From: Phyllobates terribilis | Taxonomy: Eukaryota | DNA length: 64,000 bases | Direction: 5' to 3' | Assembly (NCBI RefSeq): GCF_046119375.1 | Contig: NW_027362767.1 | Location: 203,670,001-203,734,000 of the forward strand | In this document: positions 19,693-64,000 of the stretch, in pieces | Position numbering within the stretch: the first letter of the stretch is position 1 | How the letters are laid out: every line of letters starts with the position of its first letter | Notes under the pieces: generated by a model | Seen by the model: only the letters and a program-made list of their open reading frames with translations | What the model was told of the DNA's origin: nothing | The model's database searches: none | Position numbers and translations under genes: made by a program

Positions 19693-19697
19693 ACTTT

Positions 19698-19715
19698 TGG
19701 TGTAGTCGGCAGGAT
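19698..19715 (+). promoter_or_regulatory. Primer binding site, tRNA-Ser
   Basis: TGGTGTAGTCGGCAGGAT, 5 nt after the LTR. It is a 17/18 match to the complement of the tRNA-Ser 3' end (TGGCGTAGTCGGCAGGAT). Confidence 0.85.
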
Positions 19716-20133: not shown

Positions 20134-21114
20134 ATGTCGGATACGGAGGAGAGCTTCACTGCCTCAACCCCCGCCAGCGCCACCGCTGCTGCAGTCATGC
20201 CTTTCACCATGCCCTATATCCCGGGAGCGGCCTGGCTACCCCAGTACTCAGGGGAGTCACATACTCTGCATGACTTTAGAGAAAAGCTGGATAGCCTCTT
20301 CCAGGTGTACCCCCTCACAGAAGAGCAAAAAGTGAGCATCCTGGTGGCCCAATTAACTGGGGCAGCCCAAAGGGAGGTAAAGTCCTGGCCACCTGGGGGA
20401 AGGACTGTCGCAGGGATACTAACCCGGCTGAAGGATACCTTTGATACCCGCACCTCAGCCGAGATCAAGCTTAGATTCTACGGGTGCAAGCAGCGAGCAC
20501 AAGAGAGTATAAGGGACTATGCACTAAACCTACAAGAGGCCCTGAGAGCCATTAAGCAGACCGACCCTGACGGCGTGGGAGACGAGGACCGGCTGTTGAC
20601 TGAACAATTTATAGAGGGTTTATATTGCAATGCCCACCGAACCCAGTTGCGGGCAATGGCCTTACAGGACCCTCATCTGGGATTTGCACAGTTCAAGGAC
20701 AGAGCCATCCGGGTGCTCCGAGAACCGGCACCAGGTGGCGTTGTGACCCACAGACGCCCCACTACCACTTACCACCAAGAGGCGGCGCCCTTGTCGGCAG
20801 GGCCTGTGGGAGCTGATGCGCAGGCTTTGAACAATGACCCGGCTCCCGACCTGCACCATCAGGTCCAAGAGCTAGCTAAAAGCGTTGCTGCGCTAACCCG
20901 AACTGTGCAGTCTTTACAGGTTTCTACTCCAGGGAAGATCCAGCTGGCATCCGGACCGGAGGACATCCCGTGGCACCGACCAAGGAGGACCCCACCGGCC
21001 AGAGGAAGACCCAGCGACCGATACAACGAGGACGGACAATCTATCTGCCGCCGCTGCAATCAACCCGGACATATGGCAAGGTACTGTCCTTTAAACTGGC
21101 ACAACCTAGGGTAG
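20134..21114 (+). CDS. gag: Gag (326 aa) with C-terminal CCHC zinc knuckle
   Basis: The ORF lies after the PBS, has a capsid-like region and contains CRRCNQPGHMARYC (CX2CX4HX4C). Confidence 0.93.
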   Translation: MSDTEESFTASTPASATAAAVMPFTMPYIPGAAWLPQYSGESHTLHDFREKLDSLFQVYPLTEEQKVSILVAQLTGAAQREVKSWPPGGRTVAGILTRLKDTFDTRTSAEIKLRFYGCKQRAQESIRDYALNLQEALRAIKQTDPDGVGDEDRLLTEQFIEGLYCNAHRTQLRAMALQDPHLGFAQFKDRAIRVLREPAPGGVVTHRRPTTTYHQEAAPLSAGPVGADAQALNNDPAPDLHHQVQELAKSVAALTRTVQSLQVSTPGKIQLASGPEDIPWHRPRRTPPARGRPSDRYNEDGQSICRRCNQPGHMARYCPLNWHNLG

Positions 21115-29261: not shown

Positions 29262-29333
29262 GGCATCCGCCTTAACATTCTTAGTACCAGGGATGTAAGT
29301 AACGGAGAAATTAAACCGCGAGAAAAACAGTGC

Positions 29334-31874: not shown

Positions 31875-31911
31875 GATGGAACAGAAAAATCTTTTCTTAG
31901 AGAATTTGCAG

Positions 31912-31920
31912 GCTGGACTT
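31912..31920 (-). promoter_or_regulatory. Self-priming PBS (Tf1/sushi type)
   Basis: Minus-strand AAGTCCAGC, 2 nt after the 5' LTR, is exactly complementary to GCTGGACTT in the LTR (plus 32248-32256). That LTR motif lies ~30 nt downstream of TATTTAA. There is no TGG tRNA-type PBS. Confidence 0.8.
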
Positions 31921-31922
31921 AC

Positions 31923-32343
31923 TGTTATGTTCTGCTACCAGAGCTAAGGAAAGAGAGGAGATCTGTCCCTACGATAGAACTCAGCTGAATCCCTACGATG
32001 TAACAGGGAACCTGATCCTGCGATCAGACCTGCTAAAGTCCTAAGCTAGTCTGTACAGAGACCTATAGATGTGGGGAAGGAATCCCTACAAGTACTAAGG
32101 ACTGGGAGGAAAATGGGACACCTCCTAACAGAAATAGTAGCAGACAGACGAACAAACAAAATATATAGAACATAGAGGTCCGTAGACCAAGCAAACTAAC
32201 AGAGTTAGATACAAAGCACAGGCTAGCTAGAAAGTAGTTATACAATGAAGTCCAGCAAAGCCAGAAGGGCGGAGCAGGATTAAATAGGCCCAACAAGGTC
32301 ATGTGACCAGCAAAGGAAAAAACCTAAGAGCAAGGTTCTAACA
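31923..32343 (-). repeat. 5' LTR of chromovirus element 2 (421 bp), TATA-like TATTTAA at plus 32280-32286
   Basis: Direct repeat of 27376-27795. Confidence 0.95.
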
Positions 32344-37519: not shown

Positions 37520-37897
37520 TTAGAGGGGTTTGGCTCAAGTCTGCAGCCACACTATGTGACTGCAAACTTGTGAATCCTCTCAGTGCGCACAGTTCATGCT
37601 GTGAGGATTCTCTCAGGAGCGGACGGTCATGTGACCACAAGCATGTGATTTTCATACTTTCAGCCACACAACTAGACATTGCCAGCCTCACTCAATCCTC
37701 TTGTATTCCGTAAGGCTGAGTGCATGTGATTCTATACAAGCAAATCACATGCTTGCAAGTCACACGCCCGCTCGCTCCCAGTGCAGGCACCGGAGAATTC
37801 TAACGGTGTGCACTGTGCGCGCTTGTGAGGATTCACAAGTCTGCAGCTACATAGAGGAACTCCAGATTGGAACCCCAAGCCTTGACAACCCCTTTAA
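37520..37897. mobile_element. Kolobok/T2-type MITE (same family as 32661-33047)
   Basis: Palindromic interior (AGTCTGCAGCCAC.../CAAGTCTGCAGC; GTGAGGATTC / GAATCCTC). Ends GACAACCCCTTTAA. Confidence 0.65.
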
Positions 37898-38499
37898 CTA
37901 TAGTGTTCTGTGTGGAATAGACAGTAGGAGGGGTAATATAGCAGAAGTTTTGGGAACTCAGGGACTAAGTGAAAGGCACTCAATTGTCAGAGTGTGGTGA
38001 GAGCGTCCTGTGGTGGCAATGCCCAGAGGATGCATCGGAGAGGGAAAGTGAGAGACAGACAACCCTTGGATGGTGACAGGGGGACAAAACCACTGGCGAT
38101 TCAGGAAACAATGACAGAGGGAGTGTCGGGGCCATTTAGGGCAGGGTTTGTGTCAAAGAAGTAGAGCACTAAAGGGAAGGTAAGAAATTGACACCCAACA
38201 TGTAGCTGGAAACTTAGCAAGTGGTGTACATTGTCATCCAAGAGGAACATTAATGTCACTGTTGTACTCAACAGAATCCATGATGTCTGTCATAGGGCAT
38301 TTACCAGTAACAACATTCTGAAAATTATGGTGCGGGTAAAGGATGATGACATTATGGCATTGTTAGAGAAATAGTCATCTGGCACAACCAGAAATGAAGA
38401 AATCATTAGCAGGTTATTTTGTCCATTTTAAGTTCTGATTCACTGTGACAATTCTACGTCCCTAGACCTCCATATTCCAGTCTTACCCACAGTCTAACA

Positions 38500-38684
38500 T
38501 TTTGTAGCGGTCTTTTGCGGCCAGCAGCTGACGTCGGCGTGCACGAGATCGGGGCAGTGGCAGTGACGTCATGTGCTCCCATTGCTTGCACGCTGAAGTC
38601 AGCTGCGGGCTGCAGTAGAGGACACCGCACGGCGGAGGACCGCAGGGAAGGTGAGAAATTATTTATTTTTTTTAAATCAGTGAG
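38500..38684 (+). other. CpG-rich leader abutting the satellite, resembling the internal part of a non-autonomous DNA transposon
   Basis: GC/CpG-rich segment (TGACGTC motifs), then GGAAG|GTGAG and a T-run, then the first monomer. No terminus was identified. Confidence 0.4.
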
Positions 38685-41600
38685 TACTGCATGGATGACT
38701 ATGGGCTGTGCATTATACTACATAGATGACTATGGGCTGTGCATTATACTACATGGATGACTATGGACTGTGCATTATACTACATGGATGACTATGGGCT
38801 GTGCATTATACAACATGGATGACTATGGACTGTGCATTATACTACATGGATGATTATGGTCTGTGCAATATACTACATGGATGACTATGGGCTGTGCATT
38901 ATACAACATGGATGACTATGGACTGTGCATTATACTACATGGATGATTATGGTCTGTGCAATATACTACATGGATGACTATGGGCTGTGCATTATACTAC
39001 ATGGATGACTATGGGCTGTGCATTATACTACATGGATGACTATGGGCTGTGCATTATACTACATGGATGACTATGGGCTGTGCATTATACTACATGGATG
39101 ACTATGGGCTGTGCATTATACTACATGGATGACTATGGGCTGTGCATTATACTACATGGATGACTATGGGCTGTGCATTTTACTACATGGATGACTATGG
39201 GCTGTGCATTATACTACATGGATGACTATGGGCTGTGCATTATACTACATGGATGACTATGGGCTGTGCATTATACTACATGGATGACTATGGGCTGTGC
39301 ATTTTACTACATGGATGACTATGGGCTGTGCATTATACTACATGGAGGACTATGGGCTGTGCATTTTACTACATGGATGACTATGGGCTGTGCATTATAC
39401 TACATGGATAACTATGGGCTGTGCATTATACTACATGGATGACTATGGGCTGTGCATTATACTACATGGATGACTATGGGCTGTGCATTATACTACATGG
39501 ATGACTATGGGCTGTGCATTATACTACATGGATGACTATGGACTGTGCATTATACTACATGGATGACTATGAGCTGTGCATTATACTACATGGATGACTA
39601 TGGGCTGTGCATTATACTACATGGATGACTATGGGCTGTGCATTATACTACATGGATGACTATGGGCTGTGCATTATACTACATGGATGACTATGGGCTG
39701 TGCATTTTACTACATGGATGACTATGGGCTGTGCATTATACTACATGGATGACTATGGGCTGTGCATTATACTACATGGATGACTATGGGCTGTGCATTT
39801 TACTACATGGATGATTATGGGATGTGCATTATACAACATGGATGACTATGGGCTGTGCATTATACAACATGGATGACTATGGGCTGTGCATTATACTACA
39901 TGCATGACTATGGGCTGTGCATTATACTACATGGATGACTATGAGCTGTGCATTATACTACATGGATGATTACGGTCTGTGCAATATACTACATGGATGA
40001 CTATGAGCTGTGCATTATACTACATGGTTGACTATGAGCTGAGCATTATACTACATGGATGACTATGAGCTGTGCATTATACTACATGGATGACTATGGG
40101 CTGTGCATTATACAACATGGATGACTATGGACTGTGCATTATACTACATGGATGACTATGGGCTGTGCATTATACTACATGGATGACTATAGGCTGTGCA
40201 TTATACTACATGGATGACTATGAGCTGTGCATTATACTACATGGATGACTATGGGCTGTGCATTATACTATATGGATGACTATGGGCTGTGCATTATACT
40301 ACATGGATGACTATGGGCTGTGCATTATACTACATGGATGACTATGGGATGTGCATTATACAACATGGATGACTATGGACTGTGCATTATACTACATGGA
40401 TGATTATGGTCTGTGCAATATACTACATGGATGACTATGAGCTGTGCATTATACAACATGGATGACTATGGACTGTGCATTATACTACATGGATGATTAT
40501 GGTCTGTGCAATATACTACATGGATGACTATGGGCTGTGCATTATACAACATGGATGACTATGGACTGTGCATTATACTACATGGATGATTATGGTCTGT
40601 GCAATATACTACATGGATGACTATGGGCTGTGCATTATACAACATGGATGACTATGGACTGTGCATTATACTACATGGATGATTATGGTCTGTGCAATAT
40701 ACTACATGGATGACTATGGGCTGTGCATTATACAACATGGATGACTATGGGCTGTGCATTATACTACATGGATGACTATGGACTGTGCATTACACTACAT
40801 GGATGACTATGGACTGTGCATCATATTACATGGATGATTATGGTCTGTGCATTATACTACATGGATGACTATGGGCTGTGCATTATACAACATGGATGAC
40901 TATGGACTGTGCATTATACTACATGGATGGCTATGGGCTGTGCATTATACTACATGGATGACTATGGGCTGTGCATTATACTACATGGATGACTATGGGC
41001 TGTGCATTATACTATATGGATGACTATGGGCTGTGCATTATACTACATGGATGACTATGGGCTGTGCATTATACTACATGGATGACTATGGGCTGTGCAT
41101 TATACAACATGGATGACTATGGACTGTGCATTATACTACATGGATGATTATGGTCTGTGCAATATACTACATGGATGACTATGAGCTGTGCATTATACTA
41201 CATGGATTATTATGGGCTGTGCATTATACTACATGGATGACTATGGGTTGTGCATTATACTACATGGATGACTATGGGCTGTGCATTATACTATATGGGT
41301 GACTATGAGCTGTGCATTATACTACATGGATGACTATGGGCTGTGCATTATACAACATGGATGACTATGGACTGTGCATTATACTACATGGATGACTATG
41401 GGCTGTGCATTATACTACATGGATGACTATGGGCTGTGCATTATACTACATGGATGACTATGGGCTGTGCATTATACTACATGGATGACTATGGGCTGTG
41501 CATTATACTACATGGATGACTATGGGCTGTGCATTATACTACATGGATGACTATGGGCTGTGCATTATACTACATGGATGACTATGGGCTGTGCATTATA

Positions 41601-44600
41601 CTACATGGATGACTATGGGCTATGCATTATACTACATGCATGACTATGGGCTGTGCATTATAATACATGGATGACTATGGGCTGTGCATTATACTACATG
41701 GATGACTATGGACTGTGCATTATACTACATGGATGACTATGGGCTGTGCATTATACTACATGGATGACTATCGGCTGTGCATTATACTACATGGATGACT
41801 ATGGGCTGTGCATTATACTACATGGATGACTATGGGCTATGCATTATACTACATGCATGACTATGGGCTGTGCATTATAATACATGGATGACTATGGGCT
41901 GTGCATTATACTACATGGATGACTATGGGCTATGCATTATACTACATGCATGACTATGGGCTGTGCATTATAATACATGGATGACTATGGGCTGTGCATT
42001 ATAATACATGGATGACTATGGGCTGTGCATTATACTACATGGATGACTATGTGCTGTGCATTATACTACATGGATGACTATGGGCTGTGCATTATACTAC
42101 ATGGATGACTATGGGCTGTGCATTATACTACATGGATGACTATGGGCTGTGCATTATACTACATGGATGACTATGGGCTGTGCATTATACTACATGGATG
42201 ACTATGGGCTGTGCATTATACTACATGGATGACTATGGGCTATGCATTATACTACATGCATGACTATGGGCTGTGCATTATACTACATGGATGACTATGG
42301 GCTGTGCATTATACTACATGGATGACTATGGGCTATGCATTATACTACATGCATGACTATGGGCTGTGCATTATAATACATGGATGACTATGGGCTGTGC
42401 ATTATACTACATGGATGACTATGGACTGTGCATTATACTACATGTATGACTATGGGCTGTGCAATATACTACATGGATGACTATGAGCTGTGCATTATAC
42501 TACATGGATGACTATGGGCTGTGCATTATACTACATGGATGACTATGAGCTGTGCATTATACTACATGGATGATTATGGTCTGTGCAATATACTACATGG
42601 ATGACTATGAGCTGTGCATTATACTACATGGATGACTATGGGCTGTGCATTATACTACATGGGTGACTATGAGCTGAGCATTATACTACATGGATGACTA
42701 TGAGCTGTGCATTATACTATATGAATGACTATGGGCTGTGCATTATACTACATGGATGACTATGGGCTGTGCATTATACTACATGGATGACTATGGGCTG
42801 TGCATTATACAACATGGATGACTATGGACTGTGCATTATACTACATGGATGACTATGGGCTGTGCATTATACTACATGGATGACTATGGGCTGTGCATTA
42901 TACTACATGGATGACTATGGGCTGTGCATTATACTACATGGATGACTATGGGCTATGCATTATACTACATGGATGACTATGGGCTGTGCATTATACAACA
43001 TGGATGACTATGGGCTGTGCATTATACTACATGCATGACTATGGGCTGTGCATTATACTACATGGATGATTATGGTCTGTGCAATATACTACATGGATGA
43101 CTATGAGCTATGCATTATACTACATGGATGACTATGGGCTGTGCATTATACTACATGGGTGACTATGAGCTGAGCATTATACTACATGGATGACTATGAG
43201 CTGTGCATTATACTACATGGATGACTATGGGCTGTGCATTATACAACATGGATGACTATGGGCTGTGCATTATACTACTATGTATGACTATGGGCTGTGC
43301 ATTATACTACATGGATGACTATGGGCCGTGCATTATACTACATGAATGACTATGGTCTGTGCAATATACTACATGGAGGACTGTGGGCTGTGCATTATAC
43401 TACATGGATGATTATGGTCTGTGCAATATACTACATGGAGGACTGTGGACTGTGCATTATACTACATGGATGACTATGGGCTGTGCATTATACTACATGG
43501 ATGACTATGGGCTGTGCATTATACTACATGGATGACTATGGGCTGTGCATTATACTACATAGATGACTATGGGCTGTGCATTATACTACATGGATGACTA
43601 TGAGCTGTGCATTATTCTACATGGATGACTATGGGCTGTGCATTATACTACATGGATGACTATGAGCAGTGCATTATACTACATGGATGACTATGGGCTG
43701 TGCATTATACTACATGGATGACTATGAGCTGTGCATTATACTACATGGATGACTATGGGCTGTGCATTATACTACATGGATGACTATGAGCTGTGCATTA
43801 TTCTACATGGATGACTATGGGCTGTGCATTATACTACATGGATGACTATGAGCTGTGCATTATACTACATGGATGACTATGGGCTGTGCATTATACTACA
43901 TGGATGACTATGAGCTGTGCATTATACTACATGGGTGACTATGGGCTGTGCATTATACTACATGGATGACTATGAGCTGTGCATTATACTACATGGATGA
44001 CTATGGGCTGTGCATTATACTACATGGATGACTATGGGCTGTGCATTATACTACATGGATGACTATGGGCTGTGCATTATACTACATGGATGACTGGGCT
44101 GTGCATTATACTACATGGATGACTATGGGCTGTGCATTATACAACATGGATGACTATGGGCTGTGCATTATACTACATGGATGACTATGGGCTGTGCATT
44201 ATACAACATGGGTGACTATGGGCTGTGCATTATACTACATGGATGACTATGGTCTGTGCATTATACTACATGGATGACTATGGGCTGTGCATTATACTAC
44301 ATGGTTGATTATGGGTTGTGCATTATACTACATGGATGACTATGGTCTGAGCATTATACAACATGGATGACTATGGGCTGTGCATTATACTACATGGATG
44401 ACTATGGGCTATGCATTATACTACATGCATGACTATGGGCTGTGCATTATAATACATGGATGACTATGGGCTGTGCATTATACTACATGGATGACTATGG
44501 ACTGTGCATTATACTACATGTATGACTATGGGCTGTGCAATATACTACATGGATGACTATGAGCTGTGCATTATACTACATGGATGACTATGGGCTGTGC

Positions 44601-47600
44601 ATTATACTACATGGATGACTATGAGCTGTGCATTATACTACATGGATGATTATGGTCTGTGCAATATACTACATGGATGACTATGAGCTGTGCATTATAC
44701 TACATGGATGACTATGGGCTGTGCATTATACTACATGGGTGACTATGAGCTGAGCATTATACTACATGGATGACTATGAGCTGTGCATTATACTATATGA
44801 ATGACTATGGGCTGTGCATTATACTACATGGATGACTATGGGCTGTGCATTATACTACATGGATGACTATGGGCTGTGCATTATACAACATGGATGACTA
44901 TGGACTGTGCATTATACTACATGGATGACTATGGGCTGTGCATTATACTACATGGATGACTATGAGCTGTGCATTATATTACATGGATGACTATGAGCTG
45001 TGCATTATACTACATGGATGACTATGGGCTGTGCATTATACTACATGGATGACTATGGGCTGTGCATTATACTACATGGATGACTATGGGCTATGCATTA
45101 TACTACATGGATGACTATGGGCTGTGCATTATACAACATGGATGACTATGGGCTGTGCATTATACTACATGCATGACTATGGGCTGTGCATTATACTACA
45201 TGGATGACTATGGTCTGTGCAATATACTACATGGATGACTATGAGCTATGCATTATACTACATGGATGACTATGGGCTGTGCATTATACTACATGGGTGA
45301 CTATGAGCTGAGCATTATACTACATGGATGACTATGGGCTGTGCATTATACAACATGGATGACTATGGGCTGTGCATTATACTACTATGTATGGCTATGG
45401 GCTGTGCATTATACTACATGGATGACTATGGGCCGTGCATTATACTACATGAATGACTATGGTCTGTGCAATATACTACATGGAGGACTGTGGGCTGTGC
45501 ATTATACTACATGGATGATTATGGTCTGTGCAATATACTACATGGAGGACTGTGGACTGTGCATTATACTACATGGATGACTATGGGCTGTGCATTATAC
45601 TACATGGATGACTATGGGCTGTGCATTATACTACATGGATGACTATGGGCTGTGCATTATACTACATAGATGACTATGGGCTGTGCATTATACTACATGG
45701 ATGACTATGAGCTGTGCATTATTCTACATGGATGACTATGGGCTGTGCATTATACTACATGGATGACTATGAGCAGTGCATTATACTACATGGATGACGA
45801 TGGGCTGTGCATTATACTACATGGATGACTATGAGCTGTGCATTATACTACATGGATGACTATGGGCTGTGCATTATACTACATGGATGACTATGAGCTG
45901 TGCATTATTCTACATGGATGACTATGGGCTGTGCATTATACTACATGGATGACTATGAGCTGTGCATTATACTACATGGATGACTATGGGCTGTGCATTA
46001 TACTACATGGATGACTATGAGCTGTGCATTATACTACATGGGTGACTATGGGCTGTGCATTATACTACATGGATGACTATGAGCTGTGCATTATACTACA
46101 TGGATGACTATGGGCTGTGCATTATACTACATGGATGACTATGGGCTGTGCATTATACTACATGGATGACTATGGGCTGTGCATTATACTACATGGATGA
46201 CTGGGCTGTGCATTATACTACATGGATGACTATGGGCTGTGCATTATACAACATGGATGACTATGGGCTGTGCATTATACTACATGGATGACTATGGGCT
46301 GTGCATTATACAACATGGGTGACTATGGGCTGTGCATTATACTACATGGATGACTATGGTCTGTGCATTATACTACATGGATGACTATGGGCTGTGCATT
46401 ATACTACATGGTTGATTATGGGTTGTGCATTATACTACATGGATGACTATGGTCTGAGCATTATACAACATGGATGACTATGGGCTGTGCATTATACTAC
46501 ATGGATGACTATGGTCTGTGCATTATACTACATGGTTGATTATGGGTTGTGCATTATACTACATGGATGACTATGGTCTGTGCATTATACTACATGGTTG
46601 ATTATGGGTTGTGCATTATAAAACATGGATGACTATGGGCTGTGCATTATACTATATGGATGACTAAGCGCTATGCATTATACTACATGGATGACTATGG
46701 GCTGTGCATAATACTACATGGATGACTATGGGCTGTGCATTATACTACATAGATGACTATGGGCTGTGCATTATACTACATGAATGACTATGGTCTGTGC
46801 AATATACTACATTGGATGACTATGGGCTGTGCATTATACTACATGGATGACTATGGGCTGTGCATTGTACCACATGGATGACTATGGACTGTGCATTATA
46901 CTACATGGATAACTATGGGTTGTGCATTATACTACATGGATGACTATGGGCTGTGCATTATACAACATGGATGACTATGGACTGTGCATTATACTACATG
47001 GATGATTATGGTCTGTGCAATATACTACATGGATGACTATGAGCTGTGCATTATACAACATGGATGACTATGGACTGTGCATTATACTACATGGATGATT
47101 ATGGTCTGTGCAATATACTACATGGATGACTATGGGCTGTGCATTATACAACATGGATGACTATGGACTGTGCATTATACTACATGGATGATTATGGTCT
47201 GTGCAATATACTACATGGATGACTATGGGCTGTGCATTATACAACATGGATGACTATGGACTGTGCATTATACTACATGGATGATTATGGTCTGTGCAAT
47301 ATACTACATGGATGACTATGGGCTGTGCATTATACAACATGGATGACTATGGGCTGTGCATTATACTACATGCATGACTATGGGCTGTGCATTATACAAC
47401 ATGGATGACTATGGACTGTGCATTACACTACATGGATGACTATGGACTGTGCATCATATTACATGGATGATTATGGTCTGTGCATTATACTACATGGATG
47501 ACTATTGGCTGTGCATTATACAACATGGATGACTATGGACTGTGCATTATACTACATGGATGACTATGTGCTGTGCATTATACTACATGGATGACTATGG

Positions 47601-50600
47601 GCTGTGCATTATACTACATGGATGACTATGGGCTGTGCATTATACTATATGGATGACTATGGGCTGTGCATTATACTACATGGATGACTATGGGCTGTGC
47701 ATTATACTACATGGATGACTATGGGCTGTGCATTATACAACATGGATGACTATGGACTGTGCATTATACTACATGGATGATTATGGTCTGTGCAATATAC
47801 TACATGGATGACTATGAGCTGTGCATTATACTACATGGATGACTATGAGCTGTGCATTATACTACATGGATGATTATGGGCTGTGCATTATACTATATGG
47901 GTGACTATGAGCTGTGCATTATACTACATGGATGACTATGGGCTGTGCATTATACAACATGGATGACTATGGACTGTGCATTATACTACATGGATGACTA
48001 TGGGTTGTGCATTATACTACATGGATGACTATGGGCTGTGCATTATACTACATGGATGACTATGGGCTGTGCATTGTACTACAAGGATGACTATGGGCTG
48101 TGCATTATACTACATGGATGACTATGGGCTGTGCATTATACTACATGGATGACTATGGGCTGTGCATTATACAACATGGATGACTATGGGCTGTGCATTA
48201 TACTACATGCATGACTATGGGCTGTGCATTATACTACATGGATGACTATGAGCTGTGCATTATACTACATGGATGACTATGGGCTGTGCATTATACTACA
48301 TGGATGACTATGGGCTGTGCATTATACTACATGGATGACTATGGGCTGTGCATTATACTACATGGATGACTATGGGCTGTGCATTATACTACATGGATGA
48401 CTATGGGCTATGCATTATACTACATGCATGACTATGGGCTGTGCATTATACTACATGGATGACTATGGGCTGTGCATTATACTACATGGATGACTATGGG
48501 CTATGCATTATACTACATGCATGACTATGGGCTGTGCATTATAATACATGGATGACTATGGGCTGTGCATTATACTACATGGATGACTATGGACTGTGCA
48601 TTATACTACATGGATGACTATCGGCTGTGCATTATACTACATGGATGACTATGGGCTGTGCATTATACTACATGGATGACTATGGGCTGTGCATTATACT
48701 ACATGGATGACTATGGGCTATGCATTATACTACATGCATGACTATGGGCTGTGCATTATAATACATGGATGACTATGGGCTGTGCATTATACTACATGGA
48801 TGACTATGGACTGTGCATTATACTACATGGATGACTATGGGCTGTGCATTATACTACATGGATGACTATGGGCTGTGCATTATACTACATGGATGACTAT
48901 GGGCTGTGCATTATACTACATGGATGACTATGGGCTGTGCATTATACTACATGGATGACTATGGGCTGTGCATTATACTACATGGATGACTATGGGCTAT
49001 GCATTATACTACATGCATGAGTATGGGCTGTGCATTATACTACATGGATGACTATGGGCTGTGCATTATACTACATGGATGACTATGGGCTATGCATTAT
49101 ACTACATGCATGACTATGGGCTGTGCATTATAATACATGGATGACTATGGGCTGTGCATTATACTACATGGATGACTATGGACTGTGCATTATACTACAT
49201 GTATGACTATGGGCTGTGCAATATACTACATGGATGACTATGAGCTGTGCATTATACTACATGGATGACTATGGGCTGTGCATTATACTACATGGATGAC
49301 TATAAGCTGTGCATTATACTACATGGATGATTATGGTCTGTGCAATATACTACATGGATGACTATGAGCTGTGCATTATACTACATGGATGACTATGGGC
49401 TGTGCATTATACTACATGGGTGACTATGAGCTGAGCATTATACTACATGGATGACTATGAGCTGTGCATTATACTATATGAATGACAATGGGCTGTGCAT
49501 TATACTACATGGATGACTATGGGCTGTGCATTATACAACATGGATGACTATGGACTGTGCATTATACTACATGGATGACTATGGGCTGTGCATTATACTA
49601 CATGGATGACTATGGGCTGTGCATTATACTACATGGATGACTATGGGCTGTGCATTATACTACATGGATGACTATGGGCTATGCATTATACTACATGGAT
49701 GACTATGGGCTGTGCATTATACAACATGGATGACTATGGGCTGTGCATTATACTACATGCATGACTATGGGCTGTGCATTATACTACATGGATGACTATG
49801 GGCTGTGCATTATACTACATGGATGATTATGGTCTGTGCAATATACTACATGGATGACTATGAGCTATGCATTATACTACATGGATGACTATGGGCTGTG
49901 CATTATACTACATGGGTGACTATGAGCTGAGCATTATACTACATGGATGACTATGAGCTGTGCATTATACTACATGGATGACTATGGGCTGTGCATTATA
50001 CAACATGGATGACTATGGGCTGTGCATTATACTACTATGTATGACTATGGGCTGTGCATTATACTACATGGATGACTATGGGCCGTGCATTATACTACAT
50101 GAATGACTATGGGCTGTGCATTATACTACATGGATGACTATGGGCTGTGCATTATACTACATAGATGACTATGGGCTGTGCATTATACTACATGGATGAC
50201 TATGAGCTGTGCATTATACTACATGGATGACTATGGGCTGTGCATTATACTACATGGAGGACTGTGGACTGTGCATTATACTACATGGATGATTATGGTC
50301 TGTGCAATATACTACATGGAGGACTGTGGACTGTGCATTATACTACATGGATGACTATGGGCTGTGCATTATACTACATGGATGACTATGGGCTGTGCAT
50401 TATACTACATGGATGACTATGGGCTGTGCATTATACTACATAGATGACTATGGGCTGTGCATTATACTACATGGATGACTATGAGCTGTGCATTATACTA
50501 CATGGATGACTATGGGCTGTGCATTATACTACATGGAGGACTGTGGGCTGTGCATTATACTACATGGATGATTATGGTCTGTGCAATATACTACATGGAG

Positions 50601-53600
50601 GACTGTGGACTGTGCATTATACTACATGGATGACTATGGGCTGTGCATTATACTACATGGATGACTATGGGCTGTGCATTATACTACATGGATGACTATG
50701 GGCTGTGCATTATACTACATAGATGACTATGGGCTGTGCATTATACTACATGGATGACTATGAGCTGTGCATTATACTACATGGATGACTATGGGCTGTG
50801 CATTATACTACATGGATGACTATGAGCAGTGCATTATACTACATGGATGACTATGGGCTGTGCATTATACTACATGGATGACTATGAGCTGTGCATTATA
50901 CTACATGGATGACTATGGGCTGTGCATTATACTACATGGATGACTATGAGCTGTGCATTATACTACATGGATGACTATGGGCTGTGCATTATACTACATG
51001 GATGACTATGAGCTGTGCATTATACTACATGGATGACTATGGGCTGTGCATTATACTACATGGATGACTATGGGCTGTGCATTATACTACATGGATGACT
51101 ATGAGCTGTGCATTATACTACATGGATGACTATGAGCTGTGCATTATACTACATGGATGACTATGGGCTGTGCATTATACTACATGGATGACTATGGGCT
51201 GTGCATTATACTACATGGATGACTATGAGCTGTGCATTATACTACATGGATGACTATGGGCTGTGCATTATACTACATGGATGACTATGAGCTGTGCATT
51301 ATACTACATGGATGACTATGGGCTGTGCATTATACTACATGGATGACTATGGGCTGTGCATTATACTACATGGATGACTATGGGCTGTGCATTATACTAC
51401 ATGGATGACTGGGCTGTGCATTATACTACATAGATGACTATGGGCTGTGCATTATACAACATGGATGACTATGGGCTGTGCATTATACTACATGGATGAC
51501 TATGGGCTGTGCATGATACAACATGGGTGACTATGGGCTGTGCATTATACTACATGGATGACTATGGTCTGTGCATTATACTACATGGTTGATTATGGGT
51601 TGTGCATTATACTACATGGATGACTATGGTCTGAGCATTATACAACATGGATGACTATGGGCTGTGCATTATACAACATGGGTGACTATGGGCTGTGCAT
51701 TATACTACATGGTTGATTATGGGTTGTGCATTATACTACATGGATGACTATGGTCTGAGCATTATACAACATGGATGACTATGGGCTGTGCATTATACTA
51801 CATGGATGACTATGGTCTGTGCATTATACTACATGGTTGATTATGGGTTGTGCATTATACTACATGGATGACTATGGGCTGTGCATTATACTATATGGAT
51901 GACTAAGCGCTATGCATTATACTACATGGATGACTATGGGCTGTGCATAATACTACATGGATGACTATGGGCTGTGCATTATACTACATAGATGACTATG
52001 GGCTGTGCATTATACTACATGAATGACTATGGTCTGTGCAATATACTACATTGGATGACTATGGGCTGTGCATTATACTACATGGATGACTATGGGCTGT
52101 GCATTGTACTACATGGATGACTATGGACTGTGCATTATACTACATGGATAACTATGGGCTGTGCATTATACTACATGGATGACTATGGGTTGTGCATTAT
52201 ATTACATGTATGACTATGGGCGGTGCATTATACTACATGGATGACTATGGGCTGTGCATTATACTATATGGATGACTATGGGCTGTGCATTATACTACAT
52301 GGATGACTATGTGCTGTGCATTATACTACATGGATGACTATGGGCTGTGCATTATACTACATGGATGATTATGGTCTGTGCAATATACTACATGGTTGAT
52401 TATGGGTTGTGGATTATACTACATGAATGACTATGGTCTGTGCAATATACTACATTGGATGACTATGGGCTGTGCATTATACTACATGGATGACTATGGG
52501 CTGTGCATTGTACTACATGGATGACTATGGGCTGTGCATTTTACTACATGGATGACTATGGGCTGTGCATTATACTACATGGATGACTATAAGCTGTGCA
52601 TTATACTACATGGATGACTATGGGCTGTGCATTATACTACATGGGTGACTATGAGCTGAGCATTATACTACATGGATGACTATGGGCTGTGCATTATACT
52701 ACATGGATGACTATGGACTGTGCATTATACTACATGGATGACTATGGGCTGTGCATTATACTACATGGATGACTATGGGCTGTGCATTATACTACATGGA
52801 TGACTATGGACTGTGCATTATACTACATGGATGACTATGGGCTGTGCATTATACTACATGGATGACTATGGGCTGTGCATTATACTACATGGATGACTAT
52901 GGGCTGTGCATTATACTACATGGATGACAATGGGCTGTGCATTATACTACATGGATGACAATGGGCTGTGCATTATACTACATGGATGATTATGGTCTGT
53001 GCAATATACTACATGGTTGATTATGGGTTGTGGATTATACTACATGAATGACTATGGTCTGTGCAATATACTACATTGGATGACTATGGGCTGTGCATTA
53101 TACTACATGGATGACTATGGGCTGTGCATTATGCTACATGGATGACTATGGGCTGTGCATTATACTACATGGATGACTATGGGCTGTGCATTATACTACA
53201 TGGATGACTATGGGCTGTGCATTATACTACATGGATGACTATGGGCTGTGCATTATACTACATGGAATGACTATGGGCTGTGCATTGTACTACATGGATG
53301 ACTATGGGCTGTGCATTATACTACATGGATGACTATGGGCTGTGCATTATACTACATGGATGACTATGGGCTGTGCATTATACTACATGGATGACTATGG
53401 GCTGTGCATTATACTACATGGATGATTATGGTCTGTGCAATATACTACATGGTTGATTATGGGTTGTGGATTATACTACATGAATGACTATGGTCTGTGC
53501 AATATACTACATTGGATGACTATGGGCTGTGCATTATACTACATGGATGACTATGGGCTGTGCATTATGCTACATGGATGACTATGGGCTGTGCATTATA

Positions 53601-56600
53601 CTACATGGATGACTATGGGCTGTGCATTATACTACATGGATGACTATGGGCTGTGCATTATACTACATGGAATGACTATGGGCTGTGCATTGTACTACAT
53701 GGATGACTATGGGCTGTGCATTGTACTACATGGATGACTATGGGCTGTGCATTATACTACATGGATGACTATGGGCTGTGCATTATACTACATGGATGAC
53801 TATGGGCTGTGCATTATACTACATGGATGACTATGGTCTGTGCAATATACTACATTGGATGACTATGGGCTGTGCATTATACTACATGGATGACTATGGG
53901 CTGTGCATTGTACTACATGGATGACTATGGATTGTGCATTATACTACATGGATAACTATGGGCTGTGCATTATACTACATGGATGACTATGGGTTGTGCA
54001 TTATATTACATGTATGACTATGGGCGGTGCATTATACTACATGGATGACTATGGGCTGTGCATTATACTACATGGATGACTATGGGCTGTGCATTATACT
54101 ACATGGATGACTATGTGCTGTGCATTATACTACATGGAAGACTATGGGCTGTGCATTATACTACATGGATGATTATGGTCTGTGCATTATACTACATGGT
54201 TGATTATGGGTTGTGGATTATACTACATGAATGACTATGGTCTGTGCAATATACTACATTGGATGACTATGGGCTGTGCATTATACTACATGGATGACTA
54301 TGGGCTGTGCATTGTACTACATGGATGACTATGGGCTGTGCATTATACTACATGGATGACAATGGGCTGTGCATTATACTACATGGATAACTATGTGCTG
54401 TGCATTATACTACATGGATGACTATGGCTGTGCATTATACTACATGGGTGACTATGAGCTGAGCATTATTCTACATGGATGACTATGGGCTGTGCATTAT
54501 ACTACATGGATGACTATGGACTGTGCATTATACTACATGGATGACTATGGGCTGTGCATTATACTACATGGATGACTATGGGCTGTGCATTATACAACAT
54601 GGATGACTATGGACTGTGCATTATACTACATGGATGATTATGGTCTGTGCAATATACTACATGGATGACTATGGGCTGTGCATTATACAACATGGATGAC
54701 TATGGACTGTGCATTATACTACATGGATGATTATGGTCTGTGCAATATACTACATGGATGACTATGGGCTGTGCATTATACAACATGGATGACTATGGGC
54801 TGTGCATTATACTACATGGATGACTATGGACTGTGCATTACACTACATGGATGACTATGGACTGTGCATCATATTACATGGATGATTATGGTCTGTGCAT
54901 TATACTACATGGATGACTATGGGCTGTGCATTATACAACATGGATGACTATGGACTGTGCATTATACTACATGGATGGCTATGGGCTGTGCATTATACTA
55001 CATGGATGACTATGGGCTGTGCATTATACTACATGGATGACTATGGGCTGTGCATTATACTATATGGATGACTATGGGCTGTGCATTATACTACATGGAT
55101 GACTATGGGCTGTGCATTATACTACATGGATGACTATGGGCTGTGCATTATACAACATGGATGACTATGGACTGTGCATTATACTACATGGATGATTATG
55201 GTCTGTGCAATATACTACATGGATGACTATGAGCTGTGCATTATACTACATGGATTATTATGGGCTGTGCATTATACTACATGGATGACTATGGGTTGTG
55301 CATTATACTACATGGATGACTATGGGCTGTGCATTATACTATATGGGTGACTATGAGCTGTGCATTATACTACATGGATGACTATGGGCTGTGCATTATA
55401 CAACATGGATGACTATGGACTGTGCATTATACTACATGGATGACTATGGGCTGTGCATTATACTACATGGATGACTATGGGCTGTGCATTATACTACATG
55501 GATGACTATGGGCTGTGCATTATACTACATGGATGACTATGGGCTGTGCATTATACTACATGGATGACTATGGGCTGTGCATTATACTACATGGATGACT
55601 ATGGGCTGTGCATTATACTACATGGATGACTATGGGCTGTGCATTATACTACATGGATGACTATGGGCTATGCATTATACTACATGCATGACTATGGGCT
55701 GTGCATTATAATACATGGATGACTATGGGCTGTGCATTATACTACATGGATGACTATGGACTGTGCATTATACTACATGGATGACTATGGGCTGTGCATT
55801 ATACTACATGGATGACTATCGGCTGTGCATTATACTACATGGATGACTATGGGCTGTGCATTATACTACATGGATGACTATGGGCTATGCATTATACTAC
55901 ATGCATGACTATGGGCTGTGCATTATAATACATGGATGACTATGGGCTGTGCATTATACTACATGGATGACTATGGGCTATGCATTATACTACATGCATG
56001 ACTATGGGCTGTGCATTATAATACATGGATGACTATGGGCTGTGCATTATAATACATGGATGACTATGGGCTGTGCATTATACTACATGGATGACTATGT
56101 GCTGTGCATTATACTACATGGATGACTATGGGCTGTGCATTATACTACATGGATGACTATGGGCTGTGCATTATACTACATGGATGACTATGGGCTGTGC
56201 ATTATACTACATGGATGACTATGGGCTGTGCATTATACTACATGGATGACTATGGGCTGTGCATTATACTACATGGATGACTATGGGCTATGCATTATAC
56301 TACATGCATGACTATGGGCTGTGCATTATACTACATGGATGACTATGGGCTGTGCATTATACTACATGGATGACTATGGGCTATGCATTATACTACATGC
56401 ATGACTATGGGCTGTGCATTATAATACATGGATGACTATGGGCTGTGCATTATACTACATGGATGACTATGGACTGTGCATTATACTACATGTATGACTA
56501 TGGGCTGTGCAATATACTACATGGATGACTATGAGCTGTGCATTATACTACATGGATGACTATGGGCTGTGCATTATACTACATGGATGACTATGAGCTG

Positions 56601-59600
56601 TGCATTATACTACATGGATGATTATGGTCTGTGCAATATACTACATGGATGACTATGAGCTGTGCATTATACTACATGGATGACTATGGGCTGTGCATTA
56701 TACTACATGGGTGACTATGAGCTGAGCATTATACTACATGGATGACTATGAGCTGTGCATTATACTATATGAATGACTATGGGCTGTGCATTATACTACA
56801 TGGATGACTATGGGCTGTGCATTATACTACATGGATGACTATGGGCTGTGCATTATACAACATGGATGACTATGGACTGTGCATTATACTACATGGATGA
56901 CTATGGGCTGTGCATTATACTACATGGATGACTATGGGCTGTGCATTATACTACATGGATGACTATGGGCTGTGCATTATACTACATGGATGACTATGGG
57001 CTATGCATTATACTACATGGATGACTATGGGCTGTGCATTATACAACATGGATGACTATGGGCTGTGCATTATACTACATGCATGACTATGGGCTGTGCA
57101 TTATACTACATGGATGATTATGGTCTGTGCAATATACTACATGGATGACTATGAGCTATGCATTATACTACATGGATGACTATGGGCTGTGCATTATACT
57201 ACATGGGTGACTATGAGCTGAGCATTATACTACATGGATGACTATGAGCTGTGCATTATACTACATGGATGACTATGGGCTGTGCATTATACAACATGGA
57301 TGACTATGGGCTGTGCATTATACTACTATGTATGACTATGGGCTGTGCATTATACTACATGGATGACTATGGGCCGTGCATTATACTACATGAATGACTA
57401 TGGTCTGTGCAATATACTACATGGAGGACTGTGGGCTGTGCATTATACTACATGGATGATTATGGTCTGTGCAATATACTACATGGAGGACTGTGGACTG
57501 TGCATTATACTACATGGATGACTATGGGCTGTGCATTATACTACATGGATGACTATGGGCTGTGCATTATACTACATGGATGACTATGGGCTGTGCATTA
57601 TACTACATAGATGACTATGGGCTGTGCATTATACTACATGGATGACTATGAGCTGTGCATTATTCTACATGGATGACTATGGGCTGTGCATTATACTACA
57701 TGGATGACTATGAGCAGTGCATTATACTACATGGATGACTATGGGCTGTGCATTATACTACATGGATGACTATGAGCTGTGCATTATACTACATGGATGA
57801 CTATGGGCTGTGCATTATACTACATGGATGACTATGAGCTGTGCATTATTCTACATGGATGACTATGGGCTGTGCATTATACTACATGGATGACTATGAG
57901 CTGTGCATTATACTACATGGATGACTATGGGCTGTGCATTATACTACATGGATGACTATGAGCTGTGCATTATACTACATGGGTGACTATGGGCTGTGCA
58001 TTATACTACATGGATGACTATGAGCTGTGCATTATACTACATGGATGACTATGGGCTGTGCATTATACTACATGGATGACTATGGGCTGTGCATTATACT
58101 ACATGGATGACTATGGGCTGTGCATTATACTACATGGATGACTGGGCTGTGCATTATACTACATGGATGACTATGGGCTGTGCATTATACAACATGGATG
58201 ACTATGGGCTGTGCATTATACTACATGGATGACTATGGGCTGTGCATTATACAACATGGGTGACTATGGGCTGTGCATTATACTACATGGATGACTATGG
58301 TCTGTGCATTATACTACATGGATGACTATGGGCTGTGCATTATACTACATGGTTGATTATGGGTTGTGCATTATACTACATGGATGACTATGGTCTGAGC
58401 ATTATACAACATGGATGACTATGGGCTGTGCATTATACTACATGGATGACTATGGGCTATGCATTATACTACATGCATGACTATGGGCTGTGCATTATAA
58501 TACATGGATGACTATGGGCTGTGCATTATACTACATGGATGACTATGGACTGTGCATTATACTACATGTATGACTATGGGCTGTGCAATATACTACATGG
58601 ATGACTATGAGCTGTGCATTATACTACATGGATGACTATGGGCTGTGCATTATACTACATGGATGACTATGAGCTGTGCATTATACTACATGGATGATTA
58701 TGGTCTGTGCAATATACTACATGGATGACTATGAGCTGTGCATTATACTACATGGATGACTATGGGCTGTGCATTATACTACATGGGTGACTATGAGCTG
58801 AGCATTATACTACATGGATGACTATGAGCTGTGCATTATACTATATGAATGACTATGGGCTGTGCATTATACTACATGGATGACTATGGGCTGTGCATTA
58901 TACTACATGGATGACTATGGGCTGTGCATTATACAACATGGATGACTATGGACTGTGCATTATACTACATGGATGACTATGGGCTGTGCATTATACTACA
59001 TGGATGACTATGAGCTGTGCATTATATTACATGGATGACTATGAGCTGTGCATTATACTACATGGATGACTATGGGCTGTGCATTATACTACATGGATGA
59101 CTATGGGCTGTGCATTATACTACATGGATGACTATGGGCTATGCATTATACTACATGGATGACTATGGGCTGTGCATTATACAACATGGATGACTATGGG
59201 CTGTGCATTATACTACATGCATGACTATGGGCTGTGCATTATACTACATGGATGATTATGGTCTGTGCAATATACTACATGGATGACTATGAGCTATGCA
59301 TTATACTACATGGATGACTATGGGCTGTGCATTATACTACATGGGTGACTATGAGCTGAGCATTATACTACATGGATGACTATGGGCTGTGCATTATACA
59401 ACATGGATGACTATGGGCTGTGCATTATACTACTATGTATGGCTATGGGCTGTGCATTATACTACATGGATGACTATGGGCCGTGCATTATACTACATGA
59501 ATGACTATGGTCTGTGCAATATACTACATGGAGGACTGTGGGCTGTGCATTATACTACATGGATGATTATGGTCTGTGCAATATACTACATGGAGGACTG

Positions 59601-62600
59601 TGGACTGTGCATTATACTACATGGATGACTATGGGCTGTGCATTATACTACATGGATGACTATGGGCTGTGCATTATACTACATGGATGACTATGGGCTG
59701 TGCATTATACTACATAGATGACTATGGGCTGTGCATTATACTACATGGATGACTATGAGCTGTGCATTATTCTACATGGATGACTATGGGCTGTGCATTA
59801 TACTACATGGATGACTATGAGCAGTGCATTATACTACATGGATGACGATGGGCTGTGCATTATACTACATGGATGACTATGAGCTGTGCATTATACTACA
59901 TGGATGACTATGGGCTGTGCATTATACTACATGGATGACTATGAGCTGTGCATTATTCTACATGGATGACTATGGGCTGTGCATTATACTACATGGATGA
60001 CTATGAGCTGTGCATTATACTACATGGATGACTATGGGCTGTGCATTATACTACATGGATGACTATGAGCTGTGCATTATACTACATGGGTGACTATGGG
60101 CTGTGCATTATACTACATGGATGACTATGAGCTGTGCATTATACTACATGGATGACTATGGGCTGTGCATTATACTACATGGATGACTATGGGCTGTGCA
60201 TTATACTACATGGATGACTATGGGCTGTGCATTATACTACATGGATGACTGGGCTGTGCATTATACTACATGGATGACTATGGGCTGTGCATTATACAAC
60301 ATGGATGACTATGGGCTGTGCATTATACTACATGGATGACTATGGGCTGTGCATTATACAACATGGGTGACTATGGGCTGTGCATTATACTACATGGATG
60401 ACTATGGTCTGTGCATTATACTACATGGATGACTATGGGCTGTGCATTATACTACATGGTTGATTATGGGTTGTGCATTATACTACATGGATGACTATGG
60501 TCTGAGCATTATACAACATGGATGACTATGGGCTGTGCATTATACTACATGGATGACTATGGTCTGTGCATTATACTACATGGTTGATTATGGGTTGTGC
60601 ATTATACTACATGGATGACTATGGTCTGTGCATTATACTACATGGTTGATTATGGGTTGTGCATTATAAAACATGGATGACTATGGGCTGTGCATTATAC
60701 TATATGGATGACTAAGCGCTATGCATTATACTACATGGATGACTATGGGCTGTGCATAATACTACATGGATGACTATGGGCTGTGCATTATACTACATAG
60801 ATGACTATGGGCTGTGCATTATACTACATGAATGACTATGGTCTGTGCAATATACTACATTGGATGACTATGGGCTGTGCATTATACTACATGGATGACT
60901 ATGGGCTGTGCATTGTACCACATGGATGACTATGGACTGTGCATTATACTACATGGATAACTATGGGTTGTGCATTATACTACATGGATGACTATGGGCT
61001 GTGCATTATACAACATGGATGACTATGGACTGTGCATTATACTACATGGATGATTATGGTCTGTGCAATATACTACATGGATGACTATGAGCTGTGCATT
61101 ATACAACATGGATGACTATGGACTGTGCATTATACTACATGGATGATTATGGTCTGTGCAATATACTACATGGATGACTATGGGCTGTGCATTATACAAC
61201 ATGGATGACTATGGACTGTGCATTATACTACATGGATGATTATGGTCTGTGCAATATACTACATGGATGACTATGGGCTGTGCATTATACAACATGGATG
61301 ACTATGGACTGTGCATTATACTACATGGATGATTATGGTCTGTGCAATATACTACATGGATGACTATGGGCTGTGCATTATACAACATGGATGACTATGG
61401 GCTGTGCATTATACTACATGCATGACTATGGGCTGTGCATTATACAACATGGATGACTATGGACTGTGCATTACACTACATGGATGACTATGGACTGTGC
61501 ATCATATTACATGGATGATTATGGTCTGTGCATTATACTACATGGATGACTATTGGCTGTGCATTATACAACATGGATGACTATGGACTGTGCATTATAC
61601 TACATGGATGACTATGTGCTGTGCATTATACTACATGGATGACTATGGGCTGTGCATTATACTACATGGATGACTATGGGCTGTGCATTATACTATATGG
61701 ATGACTATGGGCTGTGCATTATACTACATGGATGACTATGGGCTGTGCATTATACTACATGGATGACTATGGGCTGTGCATTATACAACATGGATGACTA
61801 TGGACTGTGCATTATACTACATGGATGATTATGGTCTGTGCAATATACTACATGGATGACTATGAGCTGTGCATTATACTACATGGATGACTATGAGCTG
61901 TGCATTATACTACATGGATGATTATGGGCTGTGCATTATACTATATGGGTGACTATGAGCTGTGCATTATACTACATGGATGACTATGGGCTGTGCATTA
62001 TACAACATGGATGACTATGGACTGTGCATTATACTACATGGATGACTATGGGTTGTGCATTATACTACATGGATGACTATGGGCTGTGCATTATACTACA
62101 TGGATGACTATGGGCTGTGCATTGTACTACAAGGATGACTATGGGCTGTGCATTATACTACATGGATGACTATGGGCTGTGCATTATACTACATGGATGA
62201 CTATGGGCTGTGCATTATACAACATGGATGACTATGGGCTGTGCATTATACTACATGCATGACTATGGGCTGTGCATTATACTACATGGATGACTATGAG
62301 CTGTGCATTATACTACATGGATGACTATGGGCTGTGCATTATACTACATGGATGACTATGGGCTGTGCATTATACTACATGGATGACTATGGGCTGTGCA
62401 TTATACTACATGGATGACTATGGGCTGTGCATTATACTACATGGATGACTATGGGCTATGCATTATACTACATGCATGACTATGGGCTGTGCATTATACT
62501 ACATGGATGACTATGGGCTGTGCATTATACTACATGGATGACTATGGGCTATGCATTATACTACATGCATGACTATGGGCTGTGCATTATAATACATGGA

Positions 62601-64000
62601 TGACTATGGGCTGTGCATTATACTACATGGATGACTATGGACTGTGCATTATACTACATGGATGACTATCGGCTGTGCATTATACTACATGGATGACTAT
62701 GGGCTGTGCATTATACTACATGGATGACTATGGGCTGTGCATTATACTACATGGATGACTATGGGCTATGCATTATACTACATGCATGACTATGGGCTGT
62801 GCATTATAATACATGGATGACTATGGGCTGTGCATTATACTACATGGATGACTATGGACTGTGCATTATACTACATGGATGACTATGGGCTGTGCATTAT
62901 ACTACATGGATGACTATGGGCTGTGCATTATACTACATGGATGACTATGGGCTGTGCATTATACTACATGGATGACTATGGGCTGTGCATTATACTACAT
63001 GGATGACTATGGGCTGTGCATTATACTACATGGATGACTATGGGCTATGCATTATACTACATGCATGAGTATGGGCTGTGCATTATACTACATGGATGAC
63101 TATGGGCTGTGCATTATACTACATGGATGACTATGGGCTATGCATTATACTACATGCATGACTATGGGCTGTGCATTATAATACATGGATGACTATGGGC
63201 TGTGCATTATACTACATGGATGACTATGGACTGTGCATTATACTACATGTATGACTATGGGCTGTGCAATATACTACATGGATGACTATGAGCTGTGCAT
63301 TATACTACATGGATGACTATGGGCTGTGCATTATACTACATGGATGACTATAAGCTGTGCATTATACTACATGGATGATTATGGTCTGTGCAATATACTA
63401 CATGGATGACTATGAGCTGTGCATTATACTACATGGATGACTATGGGCTGTGCATTATACTACATGGGTGACTATGAGCTGAGCATTATACTACATGGAT
63501 GACTATGAGCTGTGCATTATACTATATGAATGACAATGGGCTGTGCATTATACTACATGGATGACTATGGGCTGTGCATTATACAACATGGATGACTATG
63601 GACTGTGCATTATACTACATGGATGACTATGGGCTGTGCATTATACTACATGGATGACTATGGGCTGTGCATTATACTACATGGATGACTATGGGCTGTG
63701 CATTATACTACATGGATGACTATGGGCTATGCATTATACTACATGGATGACTATGGGCTGTGCATTATACAACATGGATGACTATGGGCTGTGCATTATA
63801 CTACATGCATGACTATGGGCTGTGCATTATACTACATGGATGACTATGGGCTGTGCATTATACTACATGGATGATTATGGTCTGTGCAATATACTACATG
63901 GATGACTATGAGCTATGCATTATACTACATGGATGACTATGGGCTGTGCATTATACTACATGGGTGACTATGAGCTGAGCATTATACTACATGGATGACT
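38685..64000. repeat. 31-bp satellite array (GTGCATTATACTACATGGATGACTATGGGCT), >25.3 kb, ~815 monomers, continuing off the right edge, with higher-order repeats
   Basis: The monomer is directly visible throughout. Rare variants recur at fixed offsets (e.g. 14,048 bp). Confidence 0.99.

What the first reader, a model, noticed from the sequence alone, without database searches (positions are those of the whole stretch)
40520..64000. 14,048-bp near-identical tandem higher-order repeat inside the satellite
Seen: rare variants recur at exactly +14,048. Examples are CATTACAC at 40793/54841, GGATGGCT at 40930/54978, TGACTAAGCG at 46661/60709, the 79-aa ORF at 45341/59389, and the window end 49913/63961. 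Identity breaks just left of ~40520/54568, so copy 1 is ~40520-54567 and copy 2 starts immediately after (~453 monomers per unit). At least one difference exists (C at 45208 versus T at 59256), which argues against a pure copy artefact. Inference: a very recent large-scale unequal exchange or rolling amplification, giving a very long HOR built on a 31-bp monomer.
Basis: seen in the sequence. Interest (0 to 1): 0.7.

Follow-up and report, generated by a model that had tools for sequence, protein, structure and literature searches.

The report
Recent 14-kb doubling in transposon-borne satellite
In this assembly a 49-kb run of a 31-base repeat, sitting inside a broken jumping gene, holds one 14-kb block twice in a row with only two differences; it is likely the newest of many ordinary block duplications that grew the array, though an assembly error remains untested.

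Summary
The repeat is real in the assembly: 40,512-54,595 matches the stretch 14,048 bases downstream over 14,084 bases, with 2 differences and no gaps. Reading 100 kb past the window shows only two copies, so this is one 453-monomer tandem duplication, not a many-copy higher-order repeat. The array (38,685 to about 88,000; about 1,590 monomers) lies inside a 5'-truncated, non-autonomous hAT-type element. It also carries older nested duplications of 1.7-9.5 kb at 0.07-0.6% divergence. Five of 8 other long arrays of this family hold young 1-3.7-kb tandem blocks; none has a near-identical run above 3.2 kb. The join keeps monomer phase, uses 36 identical bases and has no N gap. Most likely it is a recent out-of-register repair or exchange on the sister chromatid (about 0.7); false duplication in the assembly is about 0.25, and no reads were tested across the join. 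The process is known from Arabidopsis centromeres and frog MITE satellites. This scan noted similar cases before, in this genome and another. Ordinary in kind, unusually large in size.

The parts
38519..38684 (+). Left internal part of a non-autonomous hAT-type element. The family's first ~100-190 bases, including the 5' terminal inverted repeat, are missing here. The element's right part and 3' terminal inverted repeat lie beyond the window (continued coordinates 88,000-88,204; L003:4000-4204).
   Evidence: 78-85% identity to 39 other places (40 of 1,741 candidates scored). 5' ends of 7 other copies align only from 38,519 and nowhere else in 164 kb. Right end.
38685..64000 (+). 31-bp tandem array. 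It continues to about 88,000 (49.3 kb, about 1,590 monomers, 113 variant types, mean pair identity 93.6%).
   Evidence: TRF; decomposition; extension
40512..54559 (+). Copy 1 of the 14,048-bp block (monomers 60-512). It carries the likely derived state at both differing sites.
54560..64000 (+). Copy 2 of the block (monomers 513-965). It continues to 68,607 beyond the window.
54560..54595 (+). Join: 36 bases identical to both donors (40,512-40,547 and 68,608-68,643), in monomer phase. The shortest junction-specific string is 54,520-54,596 (77 bp).
   Evidence: 100% match only here among 40 of 2,984 candidates scored
45208..45208 (+). Difference 1 (C; T at 59,256). Copy 1 has the consensus base where copy 2 and the older paralogues have T.
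54470..54470 (+). Difference 2 (T; A at 68,518), 90 bases before the join. The variant occurs in 9 monomers of the array.
42312..46451 (+). Older nested ~2.1-kb tandem duplication inside the block (66 monomer pairs, 3 differences, 2 gap events)
40359..51672 (+). Older nested ~6.6-6.9-kb duplication inside the block (122 pairs, 0.58% different, 13 gap events)

Best explanation
A 49-kb array of a 31-base repeat inside a truncated transposon holds one 453-monomer block twice, head to tail, and this is likely a real and recent duplication, likely made when a broken or stalled DNA end re-paired 453 monomers out of register on the sister chromatid. Shown: two copies only; an in-phase join with 36 identical bases in 91-94% similar context; 2 differences in 14,084 bases; older nested blocks of 1.7-9.5 kb; host element ends. 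Inferred: (1) a short minisatellite carried by the element (0-45 monomers in 24 sampled copies) expanded in place after insertion; (2) growth came by repeated whole-monomer block duplications, later eroded by point changes and single-monomer indels; (3) the 14-kb block is the latest step and added 40% to a 35-kb array; (4) its age is about 7,000 generations (900-26,000) at an assumed 1e-8 per site, and less if conversion raises the rate. Replication restart or template switching is slightly favoured over a reciprocal unequal crossover. No function is implied.
For: Two copies, in phase, no N in 164 kb. The same array shows graded older duplications: 2.1 kb at 0.10-0.15%, 9.5 kb at 0.07%, 7.6-7.9 kb at 0.26-0.34%, 6.7 kb at 0.58%, with monomer gaps rising with divergence. 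Assembly error would not produce these. 5 of 8 other long arrays have young 0.96-3.7-kb tandem blocks. 31% of random in-phase pairings share 36 or more identical bases, so the join needs no special homology. One of the two differences lies 90 bases from the join (chance 0.02-0.04, window chosen after the fact), like the mosaic joins in Arabidopsis. There, all 56 large centromere indels kept whole units and centromeres held under 1% of assembly errors (10.1101/2025.06.02.657473, passages). The flanks are single-copy among the candidates scored (40 of 950; 40 of 2,286).
Against: No read or depth evidence across the join. The block is an outlier: 0 of 8 other long arrays has a run with at most 2 mismatches above 3,155 bases, and Arabidopsis insertions were 1-31 units of 178 bp. 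14 kb is about one long-read length (recalled), the size of a contig-end overlap. Flank diversity is near zero, so alleles could be this alike. Both derived bases are in copy 1, which also fits two sources of sequence. No N was seen anywhere in about 0.9 Mb fetched, so I could not show that gaps are marked in this copy of the assembly.
Confidence: 0.7

Rival explanations
1. False duplication: two haplotypes or two overlapping contig ends were joined in tandem, and the animal has one copy of the block (35-kb array).
For: Size near a long-read length (recalled). Only 2 differences, both derived in copy 1, one near its end. At least 4 times longer than any young block in 8 other arrays. Near-zero flank diversity. 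Ko et al. note false duplicates sometimes joined by wrongly filled gaps (PMC9516828, passages).
Against: [quoted passage not shown] The join is in monomer phase with no inserted bases. An exact-overlap assembler has no reason to prefer a 36-base overlap to kilobase overlaps (inference). Real 6-9.5-kb duplications are on record in this same array. Neither difference is an indel.
Confidence: 0.23
2. The junction is real but the copy number is wrong: three or more near-identical 14-kb units were collapsed to two, which would be a true long HOR, possibly from rolling-circle amplification.
For: Identical copies longer than reads would collapse (inference). An unchecked note of this scan reports three near-identical 7-kb blocks in a minisatellite of another genome (e1-10320321).
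Against: The assembly shows two copies. Young blocks in the other arrays are also about two copies long (span/lag 0.86-1.07).
Confidence: 0.05
3. The unit is a functional, selected higher-order structure, for example a centromere-type HOR.
For: The array lies at 43% of its chromosome-scale record, and two other long arrays at 47% and 53%.
Against: Two copies; a 49-kb array among ordinary transposons. Other long arrays lie at 7%, 70%, 72% and 96% of their records. The unit was not seen elsewhere (limited).
Confidence: 0.02

Closest known systems
Periodicity-preserving tandem duplications in Arabidopsis CEN178 arrays (10.1101/2025.06.02.657473; passages read)
   Same: Whole units added head to tail, copy identical to the neighbouring block, mosaic joins, short conversion tracts.
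   Different: Seen there as 1-31 units (mean 1,870 bp) per event, in megabase centromeres. Here 453 units and 14 kb, in a 49-kb array inside a transposon.
Unequal-exchange and break-induced-replication models of HOR growth (Talbert and Henikoff 2022, PMC8997354; passages)
   Same: Nested blocks of distinct monomers duplicated together by out-of-register pairing.
   Different: Human HORs are reiterated many times; the longest has 34 monomers. This unit has 453 monomers but occurs twice.
Frog MITE-borne satellites: miDNA4 (Tc1/mariner), Xstir/Xmix, FEDoR (PMC12054243 and PMC9659126, passages); TE-derived minisatellite expansion in Xenopus (PMC10794172, passages)
   Same: A non-autonomous DNA transposon carries an internal tandem repeat that expands in some copies. 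Rana temporaria has arrays of 27- and 35-bp monomers up to 100 and 62 kb.
   Different: The host here has hAT-type ends and 8-bp target duplications. The passages read do not map array-internal duplication history.
Local low-copy HORs of maize satellites (PMC13011684; abstract and passages)
   Same: Locally confined patterns with few occurrences, found only in longer arrays; counted from 2 occurrences.
   Different: Average about 4 monomers by 3 copies, against 453 by 2.
False duplications in assemblies (Ko et al. 2022, PMC9516828; passages)
   Same: Adjacent near-identical copies.
   Different: Usually split by a gap and at half depth. No gap here; depth untested.

Membership tests
Higher-order repeat, classical sense | Distinct monomers repeated as a block, with blocks more alike than monomers | tested here: met
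   99.99% between blocks against 93.6% between monomers
Higher-order repeat, classical sense | Block repeated many times into a homogenised tract | tested here: not met
   Two copies; no identity at lag 28,096; array ends near 88,000. Collapse of extra copies untested.
Higher-order repeat, loose sense (3 or more monomers, 2 or more occurrences; PMC13011684) | Pattern occurs at least twice | tested here: met
Unit-preserving tandem duplication in a satellite array | Whole number of monomers, head to tail, phase kept at the join | tested here: met
   453 monomers, no gap
Unit-preserving tandem duplication in a satellite array | Present in the animal's DNA (reads span the join, depth doubled) | not testable with these tools
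   Only short-word contigs are held; the junction-specific string is 77 bp; the read-laying tool does not take long repeats
Non-autonomous hAT element (host; features recalled) | Short terminal inverted repeats starting CAG | tested here: met
   Both ends in L012 and L017; only the 3' end in the window's copy
Non-autonomous hAT element (host; features recalled) | 8-bp target-site duplication | tested here: met
   7 of 8 bases match in each of L012 and L017, the 2 of 24 copies with both ends found. Not testable for the window's copy, whose 5' end is lost.
Non-autonomous hAT element (host; features recalled) | An autonomous partner with the same ends | not tested
   Not searched
False duplication (Ko et al.) | Assembly gap between the copies | tested here: not met
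   No N in 164 kb; caveat: no N seen anywhere in about 0.9 Mb
False duplication (Ko et al.) | Half or very low read depth; discordant reads | not testable with these tools
   No raw reads offered

The most novel reading that the evidence does not exclude
A transposon-borne minisatellite can add 40% of its length in one jump of hundreds of monomers, using only a few dozen identical bases, far from any known centromere context. The many copies of this one hAT family, from 0 to over 2,700 monomers, would then be a replicated natural series showing how satellites and very long higher-order units are born, with this locus caught just after the step that seeds a 14-kb HOR.
Probability: 0.25. Interest if true: 0.45.

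Novelty: new member of a known kind. Interest (0 to 1): 0.2.

Why it matters
If real, it extends the size of a single in-phase satellite duplication to 453 units and 14 kb, well above the 1-31 units seen in Arabidopsis mutation lines. It also shows one route by which transposon passengers add bulk to a 10.6-Gb genome. The mechanism itself is established. If false, it is a gapless, in-phase false duplication, which matters as a warning for repeat studies on this assembly.

Tried and rejected
Third or further 14-kb copy: none in 100 kb beyond the window. 5' end and target duplication of the window's host copy: not found in 164 kb. Coding role of the 79-codon frame: only one ATG-started frame of 60 aa or more per copy on the + strand and none on the - strand; chance. 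Second haplotype contig: none among scored candidates. One search scored 12 of 3,316 candidates and missed the locus itself, so it says nothing about other copies of the unit. Laying contigs on the flanks: left 37,554-38,548 had 0 other letters in X1 and X3, and none in the listed pieces of X5 and X6. Right L003:4381-5513 had 0 in the listed unique-flank pieces of X1 and X2, 2 single differences in X6, and no cover of 4399-4786 in X5. Depths (X1 about 12 left, 4-6.5 right; X2 14-15 right) are contig means and inconclusive. S1 may be the assembly's source, so it is not independent. Block size scaling with array length: not supported (young blocks are 4-9% of the other arrays, 40% here). Whether the two differences are conversions: cannot be told, since 63 of 93 possible substitutions already occur in the array. 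Literature: 6 full-text searches listed no paper on this monomer or locus by title or abstract start; the monomer sequence itself was not searched. No supplements were opened; repeat tables there could name this family.
Full report
Observation. At lag 14,048 the window matches itself from 40,512 to its end with one mismatch. The window is G000:C7:203,670,001-203,734,000 in a 10.57-Gb assembly. I fetched the next 100 kb and use continued coordinates. The match covers 14,084 bases, 40,512-54,595 against 54,560-68,643, with two substitutions (45,208/59,256 and 54,470/68,518) and no indel. Shuffled monomer orders give identical runs of at most 10 monomers against 298 observed. There is no third copy, the array ends near 88,000, and there is no N in the 164 kb.

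The array. It spans 38,685 to about 88,000: 49.3 kb, about 1,590 monomers, 113 variant types, 36% consensus, 93.6% mean identity. The variant map and monomer-level alignments show nested duplications. There is a 2.1-kb pair (0.10-0.15% different, 2 gap events) and a 6.6-6.9-kb pair (0.58%, 13 gap events) inside the 14-kb unit. The tail holds 7.6-7.9-kb (0.26-0.34%, 21 gap events), 9.5-kb (0.07%, 3 gap events) and 1.65-1.74-kb blocks. The 14-kb block (0.014%, no gaps) is the youngest and largest of this series and adds 40% to a 35.3-kb array.

The host. The 166 bases left of the array and the 205 right of it belong to one dispersed family (40 of 1,741 and 40 of 2,286 candidates scored). Of 24 other copies found by the left part, 14 carry 3-45 monomer-like units and 10 carry none. 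Two of the 24 showed both terminal inverted repeats, each with an 8-base target duplication matching at 7 of 8 bases. That is the hAT pattern (features recalled). The window's copy keeps its 3' end at 88,204 but lacks the 5' end. Ten of 15 other arrays have an end of this element next to them; 3 of the 10 were picked through the flank, and 3 of the 5 without a hit ran off the fetched stretch.

Comparison within the genome. I examined 15 other regions and extended 3. Eight hold long arrays: 27 kb, 86 kb, 68 kb in pieces, 56 kb in pieces, 18 kb, 15 kb, 12 kb in pieces and at least 7.5 kb. So the array here is not the longest. Five of the 8 have young tandem blocks of 0.96-3.7 kb, and 3 have older blocks with 5.3-7-kb periods. 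None has a run with at most 2 mismatches above 3,155 bases. Block duplication is the family's normal mode of growth; a fresh 14-kb block is an outlier in this small sample, which was chosen by similarity.

The join. It keeps monomer phase and has 36 identical bases, with 12 mismatches in the 132 bases to the left and 9 in the 150 to the right. 31% of random in-phase pairings share that much, so the event did not use the array's longer perfect repeats. Both differences look derived in copy 1 by comparison with older paralogues. One lies 90 bases from the join (chance 0.02-0.04, post hoc). This weakly favours error-prone or mosaic replication restart over a clean crossover, but it also fits a poorly supported contig end. 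Two differences give 1.4e-4 per site (95% range 1.7e-5 to 5.1e-4), or about 7,000 generations (900-26,000) at an assumed 1e-8.

Real or artefact. Ko et al. (PMC9516828, passages) list gaps, half depth and discordant reads as marks of false duplication. There is no gap here, but I saw no N anywhere in about 0.9 Mb, so the test is soft. Depth and spanning reads could not be tested: only short-word contigs are held and the junction-specific string is 77 bases. On the unique flanks, contigs of five runs from three samples differ from the assembly at almost no site. This removes the argument that alleles would differ by more than two bases. For reality: the graded older duplications, the in-phase join, and the finding that Arabidopsis satellite arrays were assembled very accurately, with large errors mainly from mis-scaffolding (10.1101/2025.06.02.657473, passages). 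I put real and two-copy at 0.70, false at 0.23, collapsed extra copies at 0.05.

Known systems. Whole-unit tandem duplications with mosaic joins are observed directly in Arabidopsis centromeres. They are the core of the unequal-exchange and BIR models (PMC8997354, passages). Satellites growing inside frog DNA transposons are described (PMC12054243, PMC9659126, PMC10794172; passages). The block counts as an HOR only under the two-occurrence definition used for maize (PMC13011684, abstract and passages). Six literature searches listed nothing on this locus; supplements were not opened.

Verdict. It is a new member of a known kind, notable only for size, with a real chance of being an assembly error. 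Interest 0.2.

Noticed in passing
G000:C5:345,193,326-345,279,172 (L123-L125, L077-L082): An 86-kb array of the same monomer with an internal 8.9-kb segment in the opposite orientation (345,203,753-345,212,607). Few exact inverted 300-mers, so likely a real in-place inversion.
   Followed up: partly
G000:C7:239.97-240.72 Mb (L040-L048, L055-L058): At least 16 near-identical copies of the host element's right end, 33-77 kb apart; those fetched share the same flank. Likely a large tandem segmental repeat; related copies lie at C7:228-233 Mb and 276 Mb.
   Followed up: no
G000:C10:200.66-200.74 Mb, C7:31.17-31.24 Mb, C1:588.19-588.21 Mb: Long arrays of this monomer are interrupted by 0.8-5-kb insertions, which look like other mobile elements; these could date array layers.
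   Followed up: no
window 19,386-25,226 (+) and 27,807-31,934 (-): Two LTR-retrotransposon gag-pol regions facing each other: one with a 1,448-codon open RT-RNaseH-integrase frame, the other with a chromodomain after the integrase.
   Followed up: partly
window 6,734-7,268 and 3,948-4,494: Two short arrays (31 bp and 27/94 bp) whose units resemble the main monomer but whose flanks do not match the host element; likely related repeats on other elements.
   Followed up: partly
window 1-2,130: A 51-bp array of at least 41 copies with an open frame of 279 codons.
   Followed up: no
L017:1663-2790: A small copy of the host element in which a 35-bp monomer variant has taken over the array, showing unit turnover within the family.
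   Followed up: no
L003:4399-4786: Run X5 has no contig over this unique right-flank stretch that X1, X2 and X6 cover; a deletion, low depth or filtering.
   Followed up: no
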